Shown: positions 29,923-56,003 of the stretch, one piece after another
How the letters are laid out: every line of letters starts with the position of its first letter
How positions within the stretch are numbered: the first letter of the stretch is position 1
Source: Perkinsus olseni
Taxonomy: Eukaryota
DNA length: 64,000 nt
NCBI GenBank assembly: GCA_013115125.1
Contig: JABANN010000065.1
Coordinates: 1-64,000 of the forward strand
Reading direction: 5' to 3'
Notes under the pieces: generated by a model
What the model was told of the DNA's origin: nothing
The model's database searches: none
Seen by the model: only the letters and a program-made list of their open reading frames with translations
Position numbers and translations under genes: made by a program

Positions 29923-31055
29923 TCAGCATTTAGTCGAGTGTAGTTCATCCATCTCTATGCAGCAGCAGTAGGAAACATCAGGGTCGGCAGGAGCATCGAA
30001 GATGGAGAAGGGAGTCCCATACTTCACCAGGCGACAGTTGCCAAGCCAGTCAGCGTATTCCCAATACTCAGCGACGGCAGAGGAGGACGTGGCGTCGAAA
30101 GGCTTCATCTTCTCACACCCGAGAGTATCCTCTTTCCCCGGAGAGATTCCGAAGTGTTTGCAGAAGGCTTTGTAATACTCCACACGGTTGGCAGCTTGCT
30201 GACTCTGATGACCACATTCGATGCCGTTAGTGATCATGATAGTTGCCCCGAAGCCCGGGATCCTGTTGGCGGCGGTATCGTTCCCATTTGGTTTCCACCA
30301 GCCGGTGACAACATCATGAACAGACGGCTTGGGTGTCTGCGGGGTCATATCGAACCAGATAGCGCTGGCGAAGGACAACCAGCCGCCTTCATTCGTTAAG
30401 ACGCCGTCGGCATTGGCGAGTAAATTAGAACCTTCGGATCGTCGTAGATGACCACTGAGAACGGACCGTAGTTGTAATTCCAACTGATCTGCTTGGCACC
30501 GCGGCCGAAGTACTTTTGACCAGGACGACAAGCGAACCTGTCTTCTACCCATTGCGGGCTACTAGCGCAGTAGTCCCAGCCAGGATTGACTTCGCGGTAG
30601 TAGTATAACCCTTGTTGCCACTGAGGATATTTGCTGCTCGGGTCGTGAGCACCAACCTCCTGGACGAAATGGGCGAACATGGTGGCCAGCTCTCGTAAGC
30701 ATAGTTCATCTTTGTCGGCATTATCCGGTCCAGCGTCATCACAGAACCTCGGCCACTTCGCCACTGCCTTGAGGAAGTTGTGGTAGGTGTAAGGCCCCTG
30801 GCCCATGCCTTTACCCATGTTGGCCAAAGGGAAGAGAGACGAGAAGACAGTCTCATTAACCAGACGCTTGACTCTCTGACAATTGGCAGCATCGGTAATG
30901 TCTTGCTCAGTCGGGACACCATCCAAACGTATGGCCCTTCTTAGCATGCTCTTGGCCTCTGAGGGCAGGGGAGGGCGTTTAGAGGGGTCGCACTTATTCT
31001 GTCCGAACGCCACTTGTAGCAATAACGCGGAGAAGACGAGCAGCGAGAACACCAT
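29923..31055 (-). pseudogene. GH19 chitinase, intronless, with a frameshift near 30420
   Basis: Signal peptide; YTYHNFLKAVAKWPRFC, ELATMFAHFVQEVG, GLYYYRE, YFGRGAKQISWNYNYG; then in another frame SAIWFDMTPQTPKPSVHDV and GFGATIMITNGIECG. Confidence 0.85.
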
Positions 31056-31319
31056 TGCCTGGAAGATCGTAGAAGAACCGTGGAAGAACGTCTCCTGAGC
31101 CCATTGCAGTGTCCCATCACAGAACACAAGCTGGTGATACTACGGAAACGATTGTTTAGAAACGACAGAGGTTATGAGCATGTCGATACTGTAGCCACCA
31201 ACGCCAACATCAACTTCAACACGATGAGGTACCCTCATCATTGTCAGCGCCTGCCCGACTTCACTCTGGCCAGCACTGGGCTTAGGTGCGGAGGACTCCT
31301 TTCGAATAACCGGTGAGTT

Positions 31320-34012: not shown

Positions 34013-34469
34013 GAGTTAATTAGGTTAGTGGGGAGTGGCTGATAGAGAACACCCAGCTGTCCTCTCGACGAGTTTACATCACCCTAGACTGTGCACCTCC
34101 GCCGTGACTGGCAGCCGATAGGAAGATACGACACCACTGAGCAGCACGAGGAGCTAGTATTCGACTGGCGTCAAAGTCACAGGCAGCAGGTGTGGCCTTC
34201 ACGGCAGCATGTCTGTAGGGGTCCCCACTGCCGCTTAGCCCCCTCCCGCTGATAACTAACAACCCAATACGGTTATGGTTGCCAAAGGCGGCGACGGAGG
34301 GAGTTTATGTAAATATAACAATGGTAATAATAGTAGGATGATGCTGCTGCTATCACTAGAAGGAGCCACACGTATGATATCTTTGTCGCTGAAACACAGA
34401 GTCATCTTTGTCGCAGTCTCCACACAACAACATCCTTCTCGAGGTCCGGACGAGCTGTAGTCTGGCATT

Positions 34470-36936
34470 CAGCATTGCACAACTCTACACGACGCTGGGG
34501 TATAGTCTTGATAGGGCCCGAAACCACCGGCTTAGACCGACCTGAACCTACACCCATAAACTACCACAGTCAAGGTAAGATATCTCGCCTGGCCTACCCT
34601 GTGTCATGAGCATGGCGGCTGCTCGCTGACCGGCCTTCACGAAGTCGTTCGGATCCACGATCTCCTCATAGACCTCGAGCGCTACGGGTGGGTTCACAAT
34701 GCCGCCACTCTGCACACTGGAGGTGTCAGTCGGTGACTGACGACAAGGTGACTACTGTCATCACTAGTCCTAGGTTGCCCGACGACTCACCTGGGGAGAA
34801 GACGCTGCTGTCGCCAAGACGTGCTGGGAGGGGTCAATAGGCTGGTACTCGATCCTCGCTGGACGGTAGTCCGGGTGTGTTGGTGGTACCATCGCAGCGA
34901 AATTGCTAGGCCTCCTGAGACGGGGCAGTTGCGAGCCAACTACGTGCTAGTACTACACTTACCGTGAAGCGTTCTGTGATGTACTCCTCCTGAGGGATGG
35001 GCTCCTCGAGGCATCGCTACTGATGCTGCGAGAGCGGCTGGACCTCGAGCGAGATCTGTTGCGATGATGTCTCCTGCGGGACTTCCTTTTCTTTTCTCTT
35101 CTTTCCTTCTTTTTACGTTCCTGTACAGGAAGAACTGCGGCCACAAGCGGGAACTCGAGCGAATCAAGAGACGGGTGCAGAGTAGGCGGCAGAACTATCA
35201 AAAAGCCTCACTCGACACCTAGGCGAATTGAAGTTCACTACAACGAAGGTTAGCTACAACATTCGTCGACACCGCTTTACCAAGCCGATTGCCGAGCGTT
35301 CAGCGTTCCTAGCGATAACATCCTACGATACGCCCGGCATGGACTGGCAGTGAGAGGTAGACTAGTAGTCACCTTCTCTATGAGAAGTAGAGCCAGCTGC
35401 GTCGCTGGGTCCATGTTGTTCAGCTGTTGCGCACTGCCCGGGTTCGTAGCGAAACTCCCGTTGAGGCCGTCACGACCGTTGCCAGCAGCGGCCTCTGACC
35501 CCAAAGGCGTCAGAGGCTTAGAGTTGTTCCTTAAGTCACCTGAGTGCAGGACTGTGCGAAAGGGTTGGGGAGAAGGACAACTCACCAGCGACCATGGCCT
35601 CCCTCAGCTGGTGCCCGACGCTGTACTGTGTTTCTATCATCCTGTTGACACTTGCATGGACCAGAGTTTGAGAGCGGGGACAGAACTCCTTGGCGAGGGA
35701 GTTGGCCTCATTGATGACAACTGTTGTGGGAATATGCTGATGATTGAGAAGCTCGAAGGCAGCCGTCCTGAAGACACAACGGTGAGGCGAGGGAGGGCAG
35801 ATGGCGTAGTGATGGGTTGATGGTGAAGATTATTGACATGGCTAACTAGTGATAGAACTGTAGGGATCAGCAAATGGGCGGAAGATGTGACGAAAGACTC
35901 GAATGCCCGTAATGAGCTGCTCGAACTATGCCCAAGGAAAAGCTAGAGGTGTCAGAATGAGTGAGAACATCAAAGTGCTGCAAAGGTGACGGAGTCTCGA
36001 CAGGCTCGGGAGACTGTCATGTTTAAGAAGAGAGTAAATACACTACTAAAGGGGATCCCTTGACTATCACCCAGAACAGCATAGCACCCGGTCGTGATCC
36101 CGTGTAGGACCTCATTATCGACAGCTCCGATGTGCTGAGTGACTTCTGCAATGATTCGTCCAGTATGCTGATTATCCATCTATCACAATACACCAGGTTA
36201 GGCACCATACCTGTGAGAGAGAAGAAGCAGGAACCTTGCTAGGAATTAAAGTACATAACTACTGGTATTACCAGAGAGAAGCTCCTCAGTAAAAATATAG
36301 TACTCGGGTTCTTTAGGGAGCTTCCGCATGAACTCACTAAGATGCCACAAAGATTCTCTTCCAATGCGACCTTACCCTCGCCTTACTCGATAGCAGCATC
36401 AACCTCCGCTATGGTATGAGGTTTCTTATCGTCCCAGGCCATGAGGAACAGGACCGCCTCGCGTCTATTCTCGTGCCTTTCAATCCTAACTCGTGGTCGG
36501 AAGTCTTTAATAGGGCGGAGGGCTGTAGGGCCATGGTTGCCGCTGGCTGTGTGAGTGTGAAGAACTCTGTCATCGTGTTGATTAGCAGAGGATGATGGTG
36601 GAGGGAAAAATGATCTGGATGCCGACCTCCTTGTGGACGATGCGTCTCGGTACCGCCTCTCGCGCCGTTCACGATCGTACTCCCACTCATCGTCACGAGC
36701 CTGTCATGAGAAGAAGAGATAAACTTCATCAAAATCCTCGTCTTTGCGGACGTGCGACCGTTATTCACGGAAAAATAGGAAAAATCGTCGAAAAAGGCCG
36801 GAAAAAAAGCAGCTCCAGTTGGTACTACCTTCCTGCGCCCTTCTCTGCTCTCATCATGAGAACGCCCCTTAGAAGATCTATGCGAAGACCTGCCCCTCGG
36901 GGACCGCTCACGGGAATTGCTACGGAACGCGTACAT
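34470..36936 (-). CDS. NusB-domain protein with RS/RE-rich N- and C-terminal tails
   Basis: Spliced: MYAFRSNSRERSPRGRSS...|ARDDEWEYDRERRERR...RHENRREAVLFLMAWD...GMVPNLVYCDRWIISIL...SELSIMR|TAAFELLNHQHIPTTVVINEANSLAKEFCPRSQTLVHASVNRMI...RNRSRSRSSRSRS. The 3' end is approximate. Confidence 0.75.
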
Positions 36937-37027
36937 TCTTTATCGATTGCTTGGGCGTGCGCTTCTTACCCCAAGGGTTCCCTTTTCCGTTGTGACCCTC
37001 GCCGGCCCGATCTAGTGTGCGTCGCTG

Positions 37028-38503
37028 ATGGTCACTCTACAGAGTCGATGGCTGCGGGCGGGTACAGCGGGAGTACTGACGAATCTGAGGCGACGATGGG
37101 GGTCCTGGAGGCTCCCCATCCCCATCAAGGTTGCCGTTATAGGGGTATCTTTGCTCGGTGGTTATGCATGGCATACACAGGTTAACCCCAAGATACGGCG
37201 TAATGCCTTGCTCCAGAGCTTTTCATCCCAGGGAGGGTATCTTTCCTTAGCAGATTACTGGTGGTCTAACAGGTCTGCGAAAATAGCAAAGCAGAAGTTC
37301 GGGTTGGATGGTGACCTCTGCCATTTTTACGGTGAGAAGGGGGGCGTGGATTCTGACTTGCAGAACATCAGAAGGGCGGCTAAGGCCCGTGTCGAGTCGG
37401 ATGAGGTTGATCCGTCCTTTGCGATGCACTGGGAGACCGGCGCCTGGCTTCGTTATGGGAATGTGCTCTGGCGGGTTGGGTATTTCCCGTCATCGCGTTT
37501 GCCGTGCGATGACCCCCTTCCAGCGGCCTGCGATAGAGGCTGGTGTCTTGTGATACTTCCGGGTAACGATAGGGGCCTTGAGATGGCACAGAGGATGTCG
37601 GAGGTCACCGATGGAAGGTTTGAAGTGAAAGATTCTTCCGATCGGCCCAGTATGAATCCTGATGGAGAATCTTTATTATCGAGGTTGGACCTGGTAGGGT
37701 TTGGTATCTTAGGTCAATCAAAGATATGCCTCGACCGTTTTATTGATTTTATATTTGCTATGTTCAGCGGCGGAGCGAAGACGCCCCAGACGGTACCGCA
37801 CACGGACGGCTGCCCTCTCGTAGTCTTCCTACCCTCCTTTGCGGAGCACTACGCCTCCCGTCAAGTGCCAATGTCCCTAACACTCGCGAGTCGGGGGATT
37901 TGTGGTATGATACTAATCGAGAACCCTCTCAGGGGTAGGCGGGCCCCTCCACCATCGATGTCCCTCCATGCGGAATGCATGCATAGTGTTGACCAATTCC
38001 TGGCCTTTGCGGCTCGATCAGTATCTGACACCCGAGGGTTGCTGCACTGGATCGACTCCAAGATCCGCCCCGATAGGCTTTGCGTGGGTGGCCTGTCCAT
38101 CGGGGCCTCCATCGCCACTATGAGTGCAGTAACACTGCGGAACCTCGCTGCTGGTCTGTCGTTGTGTGCATTCTTCCCAGCATCATCGGCTAGCTCGACC
38201 TGGACTCACGAGCGCAGTGCTATGCGGCCTTACGTCAATCCCAAGCTTGATAGAGGGTACATCGAGGAAGCGACTGCTGCTACTGACATCACTACCTACC
38301 CTATGCCTACCACCCTTTCTGGCAACAGCAGCCGAGTGGAGCTGCTGGGCGCCCGGCATGACGCTATCATACTGGGGGAGAACACACGAAGGTTGAGTGA
38401 GTATCTTGGCTGCCCCATAAGATGGGTTAGAGGAGGCCATGTTACAGGAGCGCTGCTGCAGCAACATGAATTCATCCAGGCCATCACTCGGGCGGTGTCA
38501 TGA
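37028..38503 (+). CDS. Alpha/beta hydrolase, ABHD18 (DUF2048)-like
   Basis: ENPLRGRRAP, nucleophile elbow GLSIG, HDAII (Asp) and GGHV (His). An in-frame intron around 37618-37767 is possible. Confidence 0.75.
   Translation: MVTLQSRWLRAGTAGVLTNLRRRWGSWRLPIPIKVAVIGVSLLGGYAWHTQVNPKIRRNALLQSFSSQGGYLSLADYWWSNRSAKIAKQKFGLDGDLCHFYGEKGGVDSDLQNIRRAAKARVESDEVDPSFAMHWETGAWLRYGNVLWRVGYFPSSRLPCDDPLPAACDRGWCLVILPGNDRGLEMAQRMSEVTDGRFEVKDSSDRPSMNPDGESLLSRLDLVGFGILGQSKICLDRFIDFIFAMFSGGAKTPQTVPHTDGCPLVVFLPSFAEHYASRQVPMSLTLASRGICGMILIENPLRGRRAPPPSMSLHAECMHSVDQFLAFAARSVSDTRGLLHWIDSKIRPDRLCVGGLSIGASIATMSAVTLRNLAAGLSLCAFFPASSASSTWTHERSAMRPYVNPKLDRGYIEEATAATDITTYPMPTTLSGNSSRVELLGARHDAIILGENTRRLSEYLGCPIRWVRGGHVTGALLQQHEFIQAITRAVS

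Positions 38504-41101: not shown

Positions 41102-56003
<14,902 letters not shown>

What the first reader, a model, noticed from the sequence alone, without database searches (positions are those of the whole stretch)
34470..36936. Bacterial-type NusB domain sandwiched between SR-like RS/RE tails
Seen: manual splicing (introns include 36701..36828 and 35768..36110) yields RHENRREAVLFLMAWD...GMVPNLVYCDRWIISIL...SELSIMRTAAFELLNHQHIPTTVVINEANSLAKEF...VHASVNRMI. This is invisible in the ORF track. Known: the NusB family consensus includes R..ARE.alq.Ly, Gv.....iD..I, ILRlA.yEl...dvP..VvINEAveLAK.F and fVNgvL. NusB binds boxA RNA in bacterial antitermination, and the fold also occurs in RsmB. Here the N-terminus is RS/RE-rich (RSNSRERSPRGRSS, DRERRERR) rather than a transit peptide, and the C-terminus carries KKKERREKKRKSRRRHHRNRSRSRSSRSRS. 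Inference: a horizontally or endosymbiotically acquired RNA-binding domain repurposed as a nuclear SR-like RNA-processing factor.
Basis: partly seen in the sequence, partly recalled or inferred. Interest (0 to 1): 0.75.

Follow-up and report, generated by a model that had tools for sequence, protein, structure and literature searches.

The report
Eukaryotic NusB-domain protein with arginine-rich tails
A Perkinsus (shellfish parasite) nuclear gene encodes a bacterial-type NusB RNA-binding fold flanked by arginine/serine-rich tails typical of nuclear RNA-processing proteins, and it belongs to a small, apparently undescribed family of eukaryotic proteins.

Summary
Window 34402-36936 (minus strand) is a real, expressed gene with 10 exons, encoding 498 aa. 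It is 100% identical over 375 aligned residues to a Perkinsus olseni hypothetical protein. Spliced contigs from an RNA-seq run carry every exon in one 1591-nt molecule with no mismatches.

The NusB call is solid:
- Pfam PF01029 scores 42 bits against a cut-off of 23.
- A profile built only from the eukaryotic relatives hits only NusB chains in the PDB.
- AlphaFold models match NusB crystal structures at TM 0.74-0.80.

The protein is not a working bacterial NusB. It falls below the nusB equivalog cut-off. The aromatic residues that stack on BoxA RNA (F122) and anchor NusE (Y18) are aliphatic in the 40 eukaryotic sequences.

About 45 relatives share the architecture of an arginine-rich tail, a NusB domain, a conserved helix, a K/R/S tract and a C-terminal motif. 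Only the Perkinsus members are named.

Nuclear localisation and RNA-processing function are inferred, not shown. The bacterial donor is unresolved.

The parts
36829..36936 (-). Exon 1. Start codon at 36934-36936, with an in-frame TAA immediately upstream. Encodes the RS/RE-rich N-terminal tail, residues 1-36.
   Evidence: Sequence; model; the RNA contig covers 36829-36924; this N-terminus is conserved in P. chesapeaki protein P0003.
36701..36828 (-). Intron 1 (128 nt, GT..AG).
   Evidence: joint 36699->36828, cut +1.
36387..36700 (-). Exon 2. Encodes the rest of the arginine-rich N tail and the start of the NusB domain (the domain begins at 36487, residue 108).
36272..36336 (-). Encodes a NusB helix with the EYYIFTEELLSG motif. 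Flanked by introns 36337-36386 (50 nt) and 36211-36271 (61 nt).
   Evidence: Joints; present in P0002 and P0003.
36111..36210 (-). Exon 4. Middle of the NusB domain (the DRWI..ILDE..Q segment).
35768..36110 (-). Intron 4 (343 nt). A low-depth contig in run X2 covers part of it, which may be retained intron, pre-mRNA or DNA.
   Evidence: the joint, and X2 record 2 at 35740-36056 with depth 3.4.
35586..35767 (-). Exon 5. NusB helices alpha5-alpha7 plus the family-specific NRMIETQ extension. The domain ends near 35587, residue 256.
   Evidence: Pfam NusB E=1e-4 for this exon alone.
35373..35539 (-). Exon 6. Disordered linker followed by a conserved helix (D-P-x-x-Q-L-A-L-L-L, residues 299-312, at 35373-35414). 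Preceded by the 46-nt intron 35540-35585.
   Evidence: helix pLDDT 83-87; 14/14 identical between two Perkinsus species.
34963..35120 (-). Exon 7. K/R cluster (NLS-like) and the RS tract (residues 313-365). Preceded by the 252-nt intron 35121-35372.
   Evidence: Sequence; contig pieces; 40% of residues in RS/SR dipeptides in the best 50-residue window, starting at residue 316.
34791..34914 (-). Exon 8. Pro-rich, Perkinsus-specific segment. Preceded by the 48-nt intron 34915-34962.
   Evidence: The joint supports this acceptor rather than the one 3 nt downstream that annotation P0002 uses.
34598..34736 (-). Exon 9. Includes a conserved helix (residues 434-450, at 34605-34655). Preceded by the 54-nt intron 34737-34790.
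   Evidence: 17/17 identical.
34402..34541 (-). Exon 10. C-terminal family motif (residues 478-495, at 34414-34467) and stop codon at 34402-34404. Preceded by the 56-nt intron 34542-34597. The 3' UTR runs to about 34295.

Best explanation
This is a real, expressed nuclear gene of a Perkinsus olseni-type genome. It encodes a 498-aa protein. A NusB-derived seven-helix bundle (residues 108-256) is embedded in long, disordered arginine-rich tails. The N tail is RS/RE-rich. After the domain come a conserved amphipathic helix, a K/R cluster with an RS tract, and a conserved C-terminal motif. It is the Perkinsus member of a small eukaryotic family with this architecture.

Most likely mechanism (inferred): the protein acts in the nucleus on RNA or on RNA-processing machinery. 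The K/R cluster would serve as the nuclear import signal. The RS or mixed-charge tails would give condensate (speckle or nucleolus) partitioning and non-specific RNA and protein contacts. The NusB-derived domain would be the specific recognition module, using a remodelled version of the alpha6-loop-alpha7 face that binds BoxA RNA in bacteria.

It does not work as a bacterial NusB. It lacks the aromatic residues needed for BoxA stacking and NusE anchoring. To my knowledge, which is recalled and not tested here, Perkinsus has no bacterial-type RNA polymerase.

Shown: gene structure, transcription and splicing, domain homology and fold, family conservation, and loss of the key bacterial residues. 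Inferred: localisation, RNA binding and cellular role.
For: Gene and transcript:
- Ten GT..AG exons give one open frame.
- The model is 100% identical over 375 aligned residues to the P. olseni protein P0002.
- Spliced contigs with 0 mismatches occur in two runs, one of them on record as RNA-Seq. Eight joints are listed and a ninth follows from the contig pieces.

Domain:
- Pfam NusB scores 42.3 and 42.6 bits against a cut-off of 23.1, covering profile positions 2-124 of 133.
- NCBIfam nusB scores 54.8 bits against 20.8 for RsmB.
- The eukaryote-only profile A1 gives 8 of 8 PDB hits to NusB, best E=2.6e-8.
- The AF2 domain model has pLDDT 91.5. With a eukaryote-only alignment the domain has pLDDT 94-98.
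- Foldseek's top 10 hits for both models are all NusB, with TM up to 0.80.

Family:
- The exhaustive phmmer search gives 10 clusters at E<=1e-10, then a gap to bacterial NusB at 1.7e-9.
- 45 members, counting one marginal row at E=6.5e-10 and 57 bits, share the tail-domain-helix-K/R/S-motif order.
- The eukaryotic clade has support 100/97 in the careful tree.

Selection:
- Between two Perkinsus species the domain is 97% identical, the two short helices are 100% identical, and the RS tract is 56% identical.

Not organellar:
- The first 60 residues have no hydrophobic stretch (maximum KD12 of -1.47) and hold 12 acidic and 20 basic residues. Relatives are even more mixed-charge.

Not a canonical NusB:
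- E. coli F122 is replaced by Leu in 40/40 eukaryotic rows, against F/Y in 36/42 bacterial rows. Y18 is replaced by I/M/T in 36 of 40 rows (the other 4 are one Val and non-aromatic or gap entries), against Y/F in 37/42. N124 is His in 40/40 and D128 is Asn in 40/40.
- F122D abolishes BoxA binding and Y18D breaks the NusB-NusE pair (passages of PMC3177189).
Against: - No localisation, RNA-binding or interaction data exist for any member.
- The isolated domain is acidic (net charge -6 here, family median -7), so a protein ligand is as possible as RNA.
- Enrichment of invariant columns on the former BoxA face is only modest: 15/33 against 27/97 elsewhere.
- Arginine-rich mixed-charge tails also occur in nucleolar proteins, so the nuclear sub-compartment is open.
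- The transcript evidence comes from assembled contigs, not raw reads. The two raw-read RNA runs laid 0 reads.
- The RNA contigs stop 10-20 nt short of the proposed ATG, so the 5' end is not directly seen.
Confidence: 0.5

Rival explanations
1. Nucleolar ribosome-biogenesis factor. The NusB-derived domain keeps the ancestral link to rRNA. In bacteria NusB:NusE acts at rrn leaders, and the plant plastid protein NUS1 acts in rRNA maturation. Here the domain would act on pre-rRNA, possibly paired with the eukaryotic S10 homologue (uS10/RPS20). The charged tails would drive nucleolar partitioning.
For: The only characterised NusB-domain proteins act on rRNA transcription or maturation (passages of PMC4127815; PMC3177189). 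E. coli E81, which contacts NusE, is kept as D/E in 39/40 eukaryotic rows, and R86 and E91 are invariant. K/R/D/E/S-rich tails are also typical of nucleolar proteins (recalled).
Against: The NusE-anchoring Y18 is aliphatic, and E75 is A/K/R in 35/40 rows. RS tracts point more to speckles than to nucleoli (recalled).
Confidence: 0.22
2. Protein-protein adaptor. The NusB fold has lost RNA binding and serves as a helical docking domain for a nuclear partner. Any RNA contact comes only from the basic tails.
For: The domain is acidic. The BoxA-stacking aromatic is lost in 40/40 rows. There are many family-specific invariant surface residues (D-R-W, Q87, N121, NRMIETQ) with no bacterial counterpart.
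Against: The alpha6 segment that contacts BoxA (P, V, I-N-E, K) is shared with bacteria and near-invariant in the family. Bacterial NusB domains are also acidic and still bind RNA (PMC3177189 passages).
Confidence: 0.18
3. Organellar NusB. The protein is imported into the mitochondrion or relic plastid to serve organelle transcription or rRNA maturation, like plant NUS1.
For: The only described eukaryotic NusB-domain protein found in my searches, plant NUS1, is plastid-localised (passage of PMC4127815). Arginine/serine-rich N-termini can superficially resemble presequences.
Against: There are 12 acidic residues in the first 60 and no hydrophobic signal. Relatives begin with R/D/E repeats of up to about 200 residues. 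NLS-like K/R clusters and an RS tract are present. Recalled, not tested: the Perkinsus plastid has no known genome, and mitochondria use a phage-type polymerase.
Confidence: 0.06
4. Artefact: bacterial contamination, a pseudogene, or a chance ORF assembled by over-eager manual splicing.
For: None found.
Against: There are nine spliceosomal introns, and spliced RNA contigs carry no mismatches. Orthologues exist in three Perkinsus species. The domain is 97% conserved. Eukaryotic genes flank it.
Confidence: 0.01

Closest known systems
Bacterial NusB (transcription antitermination factor; Pfam PF01029, NCBIfam TIGR01951)
   Same: The all-helical fold is the same (TM 0.74-0.80 to E. coli, M. tuberculosis and T. 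maritima NusB). Sequence homology is significant. The N-terminal Arg pair, R86, E91, E81 (as D/E) and the P..V.INE...K segment of helix alpha6 are conserved.
   Different: It is 498 aa rather than about 140 aa, with disordered arginine-rich tails, an extra C-terminal helix and further motifs. It falls below the equivalog cut-off (54.8 against 88.35 bits). F122 is Leu, Y18 is Ile/Met/Thr, N124 is His and D128 is Asn. The gene is spliced, nuclear and eukaryotic.
Plant NUS1 (rice V1), a chloroplast RNA-binding protein with a NusB-like C-terminal region
   Same: It is a eukaryote-encoded protein that re-uses a NusB-type domain with an added N-terminal region (passage of PMC4127815).
   Different: NUS1 is plastid-targeted and acts on chloroplast rRNA. 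This family has no targeting peptide and carries nuclear-type RS, mixed-charge and K/R tails.
N-terminal NusB-like domain of RsmB/Fmu and archaeal or eukaryotic NOP2/NSUN-type methyltransferases
   Same: Same fold class. Fmu (1sqf) and PH0851 (2yxl) appear among the fold hits.
   Different: The match is weaker (TMq 0.55-0.58 against 0.65-0.71; RsmB model 20.8 bits against nusB 54.8 bits). There is no methyltransferase domain. None of the 116 phmmer hits is of RsmB length; the longest is 392 aa.
SR and SR-related splicing proteins; arginine-rich mixed-charge domain proteins
   Same: Disordered RS-containing and R/D/E tails flank a folded module. There is a weak compositional match to the RS region of U2AF large subunit (TIGR01642, 15.5 bits).
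   Different: There is no RRM or other classical RNA-binding domain. RS content only just reaches 40% in one 50-residue window. Relatives have R/D/E rather than RS tails.

Membership tests
Pfam NusB family (PF01029) | HMM score at or above the gathering cut-off of 23.1 bits | tested here: met
   P0002 (the window's own protein, N-terminally truncated) scores 42.3 bits and P0003 scores 42.6 bits. Exon 5 alone scores 23.1 bits.
Pfam NusB family (PF01029) | All-alpha NusB fold | tested here: met
   AF2 pLDDT is 91.5 for the domain model and 94-98 over the domain in the eukaryote-only model. The Foldseek top 10 hits are all NusB, with TMt 0.66-0.80.
Bacterial NusB antitermination factor (NCBIfam TIGR01951 equivalog) | Score at or above the equivalog cut-off of 88.35 bits | tested here: not met
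   54.8 bits for P0003 and 49.2 bits for P0002.
Bacterial NusB antitermination factor | Conserved aromatic in helix alpha7 (E. coli F122) that stacks on BoxA U8 | tested here: not met
   Leu in 40/40 eukaryotic rows against F/Y in 36/42 bacterial rows. Its role is taken from PMC3177189 passages.
Bacterial NusB antitermination factor | NusE(S10)-interface residues Y18, E75 and E81 | tested here: inconclusive
   Y18 is I/M/T, E75 is A/K/R, and E81 is kept as D/E. The interface residues are named in PMC9820117. The interface also varies among bacteria: 6 of 11 residues are shared between A. aeolicus and E. coli.
Bacterial NusB antitermination factor | Acts with a bacterial-type RNA polymerase at BoxA elements of rrn operons | not testable with these tools
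   No genome is held for this window. The absence of a bacterial-type polymerase in Perkinsus is recalled, not tested.
Canonical SR proteins | One or two N-terminal RRMs | tested here: not met
   No RRM was found in any exon or in P0001-P0003 at E<=1.
Canonical SR proteins and SR-related proteins | RS domain of at least 50 residues with more than 40% RS content (criterion recalled) | tested here: inconclusive
   The best 50-residue window has exactly 0.40 of its residues in RS/SR dipeptides (starting at residue 316). P0003 has 0.32 and the environmental relatives 0.08-0.32.
Plant NUS1-type plastid NusB-domain proteins | N-terminal organelle-targeting peptide | tested here: not met
   The first 60 residues have maximum hydropathy of -1.47 and 12 acidic residues. 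No dedicated targeting predictor was available.

The most novel reading that the evidence does not exclude
A bacterial antitermination-factor fold (NusB) was captured by a eukaryote and turned into the recognition module of a new class of nuclear, speckle- or spliceosome-associated RNA-processing proteins. Such a class would be an RS/mixed-charge protein family built on neither an RRM, a KH domain nor a zinc finger. It is conserved from Perkinsus to unidentified protists with compact, intron-poor genomes, and may be tied to lineage-specific RNA processing such as spliced-leader trans-splicing.
Probability: 0.3. Interest if true: 0.75.

Novelty: new variant of a known kind. Interest (0 to 1): 0.58.

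Why it matters
NusB is a textbook bacterial factor that works only with bacterial RNA polymerase and ribosomal protein S10. The only eukaryotic re-use I could find in the searchable literature is organellar: plant NUS1, found. Searches found nothing on a nuclear form.

A conserved eukaryotic family that joins this fold to nuclear-type arginine-rich tails would be a clean example of a prokaryotic RNA-binding module moved into eukaryotic nuclear RNA metabolism. It would add a new folded module to the list of domains that accompany RS or mixed-charge regions.

The question is directly testable, because Perkinsus can be cultured and the domain is small and predicted with confidence. The family is also restricted: about 10 clusters at 50% identity among 1.84 billion representatives. 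That makes it a possible lineage marker for perkinsids and their uncultured relatives.

Tried and rejected
- Raw-read RNA runs X21 and X23 laid 0 reads, so they give no test.
- No whole genome is held for the window. As a result the taxa of the environmental relatives could not be named.
- The viral-contig scan found no relative, so I dropped a giant-virus origin for the compact intronless relatives.
- The metagenome scan gave only two family loci. L001 and L002 are syntenic with a DUF3456/canopy-like gene 58 nt downstream. The Atlas placed that neighbour in all-eukaryote clusters, which supports a eukaryotic origin but names no taxon.
- The Atlas feature search with P0006 gave no usable hit.
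- A search with the second subfamily (P0034) found only one further member, P0151.
- The C-terminal exons gave no credible Pfam hit.
- Weak hits to IHO1, DUF5401, Sema4F_C, RPC4 and U2AF_lg fall in the low-complexity tails and were set aside as compositional.
- The careful 154-row tree did not finish in two runs, so I read only the quick tree.
- The RsmB outgroup segment contained a stop codon and was left out, so neither tree is rooted.
- A Verrucomicrobiota (Opitutia) donor is suggested by the phmmer ranking and by the 62-row tree. The 154-row quick tree contradicts it, and the bacterial rows were pre-selected for similarity to the query. I therefore do not claim it.
- No complex-prediction job was sent, because no Perkinsus uS10 sequence was available.
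Full report
**1. What is at the locus**

The finding lies on the minus strand of a eukaryotic, intron-rich region of about 53% GC. A search with exon 5 alone returned three proteins, each 100% identical over that exon: hypothetical proteins of Perkinsus marinus (partial), P. olseni (377 aa) and P. chesapeaki (595 aa).

I built a gene model with GT..AG introns throughout and refined it with transcript evidence. The final model has ten exons, a start codon at 36934-36936 with an in-frame TAA directly upstream, and a stop codon at 34402-34404. The protein is 498 aa.

Identity of the model to the database proteins:

| Protein | Species | Identical / aligned residues | Identity |
|---|---|---|---|
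| P0002 | P. olseni | 375 / 375 | 100% |
| P0001 | P. marinus (fragment) | 240 / 276 | 87% |
| P0003 | P. chesapeaki | 402 / 493 | 81.5% |

The window is therefore P. olseni-type nuclear DNA. The neighbouring genes are ordinary eukaryotic genes:
- An ABHD18-like hydrolase lies head-to-head at 37016-38503.
- A GH19 chitinase lies at 29923-31139.
- A chromodomain ORF lies at 41777-42430.

**2. Transcript evidence**

- Of the 24 public runs listed for this stretch, 20 hold it or part of it, and two of those are on record as RNA.
- I laid four runs. The two raw-read RNA runs gave no reads, so they are no test.
- Run X4 is on record as RNA-Seq. It holds one 1591-nt contig that covers 34295-36924 in spliced form with no mismatches.
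- Run X2, whose RNA status is a guess, holds the same junctions in two contigs.
- Eight joints are listed. They correspond, after the stated cut offsets, to introns 36701-36828, 36337-36386, 36211-36271, 35768-36110, 35540-35585, 34915-34962, 34737-34790 and 34542-34597.
- The ninth intron, 35121-35372, follows from the contig pieces. The joint row was dropped at the low-complexity K/R-coding repeat.
- The arginine-rich exons and the NusB exons therefore belong to one mRNA.
- These are assembled contigs, so ends, strand and expression level are not shown. The contigs stop 10-20 nt short of the ATG.
- A low-depth X2 contig runs into intron 4. It could be retained intron, pre-mRNA or DNA.

**3.

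Every peptide it quoted is present, and both introns it named are confirmed. Three corrections are needed:
- It missed the 65-nt exon 3 (36272-36336), which encodes a NusB helix.
- The coding region extends 68 nt beyond its left coordinate.
- Two acceptors differ slightly from the database annotation P0002. The RNA contigs support the versions in my model.

**4. Is it NusB?**

Sequence evidence:
- Exon 5 alone reaches the Pfam NusB gathering score (E=1e-4).
- The Perkinsus proteins score 42.3 and 42.6 bits (E about 1e-10), over profile positions 2-124 of 133 in P0003.
- NCBIfam's nusB model scores 54.8 bits against 20.8 bits for the best RsmB model.
- A profile built only from the eukaryotic relatives (A1, 13 sequences) hits eight distinct PDB sequences at E<=1. 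All eight are NusB, the best being E. coli NusB residues 8-121 at E=2.6e-8.

Structure evidence:
- An AlphaFold2 model of the domain has mean pLDDT 91.5 and pTM 0.85. Its alignment included bacterial NusBs.
- A second model of full-length P0003 used only 44 eukaryotic sequences. It gives pLDDT 94-98 across the domain.
- Foldseek against the PDB puts NusB structures in all top-10 places for both models. These include the E. coli NusB-S10 complex, M. tuberculosis and T. maritima, with TM by target 0.66-0.80. The RsmB/Fmu N-domain comes lower.

The NusB assignment is secure at the domain and fold level.

**5. It is not a working bacterial NusB**

The protein scores below the nusB equivalog cut-off of 88.35 bits. 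I mapped E. coli numbering through the HMMER alignment and compared 40 eukaryotic rows with 42 bacterial rows:

| E. coli position | Eukaryotic rows (of 40) | Bacterial rows (of 42) |
|---|---|---|
| F122 | Leu 40 | F 30, Y 6 |
| Y18 | I 27, M 5, T 4 | Y 29, F 8 |
| N124 | His 40 | Asn 38 |
| D128 | Asn 40 | Asp 37 |
| E75 | A 25, K 6, R 4 | mostly E/N/D |

Features that are kept:
- E81 is kept as D/E in 39/40 eukaryotic rows.
- R86 and E91 are invariant.
- The N-terminal Arg pair is kept.
- The P..V.INE...K segment of helix alpha6 is kept.

From passages of PMC3177189:
- F122 stacks on BoxA U8, and F122D abolishes BoxA binding.
- Y18D (nusB5) disrupts the NusB-NusE heterodimer.
- The BoxA site is formed by alpha6, the following loop and alpha7.

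A passage of PMC9820117 names E81, Y18 and E75 as the NusE-side pocket.

The family also has its own invariants (D-R-W, Q87, N121, N-R-M-I-E-T-Q) and an extra helix after alpha7. Near-invariant columns are somewhat enriched on the former BoxA face: 15 of 33 columns against 27 of 97 in the rest of the domain. Only 6 of those 15 carry the bacterial majority residue. I read this as re-use of the same face with a different ligand, but the enrichment is modest. The isolated domain is acidic (net -6; family median -7; bacterial median -3).

**6. The tails**

- No exon outside the domain has a credible Pfam match.
- RS/SR dipeptides number 10 in residues 1-110, 1 in residues 111-250 and 15 in the remainder.
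- The richest 50-residue window starts at residue 316 and has 40% of its residues in RS/SR dipeptides.
- The first 60 residues have no hydrophobic stretch and contain 12 acidic and 20 basic residues. This does not look like a signal peptide or a presequence.
- The full-length model predicts most of the tails as disordered (pLDDT under 50). The exceptions are a charged helix (residues 28-57 of P0003), a helix covering the conserved D-P-x-x-Q-L-A-L-L-L motif and the K/R cluster (pLDDT 83-87), and a weaker helix at residues 447-462.
- Between P. olseni and P. chesapeaki the domain is 97% identical, the two short helices are 100% identical, the N tail is 80% identical and the K/R/RS tract is 56% identical. 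So the folded parts and short motifs are conserved in sequence, and the RS tract mainly in composition.

**7. A eukaryotic family**

- I ran an exhaustive phmmer search of 1.84 billion representatives with the 160-residue domain. It gave 116 hits at E<=1e-3.
- Ten hits at E<=1e-10 (44-60% identical, apart from the window's own protein P0002 at 96%) are followed by a gap to bacterial NusB from 1.7e-9 downward.
- No hit has RsmB length.
- The ten share the architecture: an arginine-rich N tail (R/D/E repeats of up to about 200 residues), the NusB domain, the extension helix, the L-D-x-x-A-Q-L-A helix, a K/R/S tract, and a C-terminal T-Q-T-V-x-D-P...V-R-I-Y-R-L type motif.
- A profile search listed 45 rows at E<=1e-5. 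The weakest, P0150 (E=6.5e-10, 57 bits, 158 aa), sits far below the rest and may not be a family member. Only the Perkinsus proteins carry organism names. The rest come from metagenome, ENA, JGI or Logan sources, and several are auto-named 'transcription termination factor NusB'.
- A second, more divergent subfamily (P0034 and P0151) joins a NusB domain to a Pro/Met/Gly-rich region and a K/S/R tail.
- In the environmental relatives the tails are mixed-charge (R 0.38-0.48, D+E 0.34-0.42) rather than RS. The RS flavour is therefore a Perkinsus-lineage version of a more general arginine-rich tail.
- Two environmental contigs, L001 and L002, carry intronless copies. A DUF3456/canopy-like gene follows on the same strand only 58 nt downstream. 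The Atlas places that neighbour in all-eukaryote clusters.

**8. Origin**

- In a quick 154-row tree the 41 eukaryotic rows form one side of a branch (SH-aLRT 92), and P0034 joins them (97). The next neighbours are a mixed set of bacterial rows.
- In a careful 62-row tree the 14 eukaryotic rows form a clade (100/97), and P0151 joins them (100/98) on long stems of 1.04 and 1.14 changes per column. This clade sits next to Opitutia-like sequences across short branches.
- The best bacterial phmmer hits are NusB of Verrucomicrobiota (Opitutales and Puniceicoccales). P0014 is 100% identical to a Puniceicoccales MAG.
- The two trees disagree and the stems are long. The bacterial rows were pre-selected for similarity to the query. 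No cyanobacterial, alphaproteobacterial or plant sequences were knowingly included.
- I conclude only that the family has a single origin from a bacterial NusB, not from RsmB, and that the donor is unresolved.

**9. What it most likely does**

Shown: a transcribed, spliced, conserved nuclear gene whose product joins a NusB fold to disordered arginine-rich tails and has lost the residues that define BoxA and NusE recognition.

Inferred: nuclear localisation, from the K/R clusters, the RS and mixed-charge tails, and the lack of a targeting peptide. Also inferred is action on RNA or RNA-processing machinery, with the domain as the specific module and the tails as targeting and avidity elements (confidence 0.5).

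The main rivals are:
- a nucleolar pre-rRNA or uS10-linked role, by analogy with bacterial NusB and plant plastid NUS1;
- a pure protein-docking role;
- an organellar role, which the N-terminal composition makes unlikely;
- an artefact, which is excluded.

**10. Novelty**

The protein is already in sequence databases under automatic names, such as 'NusB/RsmB/TIM44 domain-containing protein' and 'hypothetical protein'. Full-text searches gave the following:
- NusB with Perkinsus: the 12 papers listed matched through author names or unrelated uses. I opened only one of them, as passages.
- NusB with eukaryotes or SR protein.
- NusB with horizontal transfer or protist.
- 'NusB-like': 3 papers, all bacterial by title and abstract.
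- NusB with chloroplast and Arabidopsis.

These found no description of a nuclear-type eukaryotic NusB protein. The only eukaryotic case found was plastid NUS1 (passages of PMC4127815). The library lacks most subscription journals, so the absence is not proof. I rate the finding as a new variant of a known kind.

Noticed in passing
window 37016-38503 (+): An ABHD18-like alpha/beta hydrolase ORF (Pfam PF09752, E=1.3e-15) lies head-to-head with the NusB-domain gene. The two likely start codons are only about 90 nt apart, which suggests a very short shared promoter region.
   Followed up: partly
window 29923-31139 (-): A glycoside hydrolase family 19 (class I chitinase) gene is split over two adjacent ORFs, presumably by an intron (Pfam E=7.8e-28 and 1.3e-15).
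   Followed up: partly
window 41777-42430 (+): An ORF with a weak chromodomain match (24.1 bits, just under the 25.1 cut-off). It could be a chromatin protein or part of a chromovirus-type element.
   Followed up: no
window 42000-53000: A sustained positive GC skew (0.13-0.28 per 2-kb window), with no ORF of 200 aa or more beyond 42430 and no tandem repeats. The cause is unknown.
   Followed up: partly
L001 1048-2948 and L002 3-1344: Two environmental contigs carry intronless family members. The same DUF3456/canopy-like gene follows 58 nt downstream on the same strand. This is conserved synteny in an unidentified eukaryote with extremely short intergenic spacers.
   Followed up: partly
window 34911-34916 and 34542-34550 (-): The database annotation (P0002) uses acceptor sites 3 nt and 6 nt away from those seen in the RNA contigs. 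This means either NAGNAG-type alternative acceptors or annotation errors.
   Followed up: partly
P0053 (bacterial hit): A 245-aa bacterial ORF in which an N-terminal segment that looks like exonuclease VII large subunit (by eye, from memory) is fused to a NusB domain. This may be a gene-calling chimera of neighbouring xseA and nusB.
   Followed up: no
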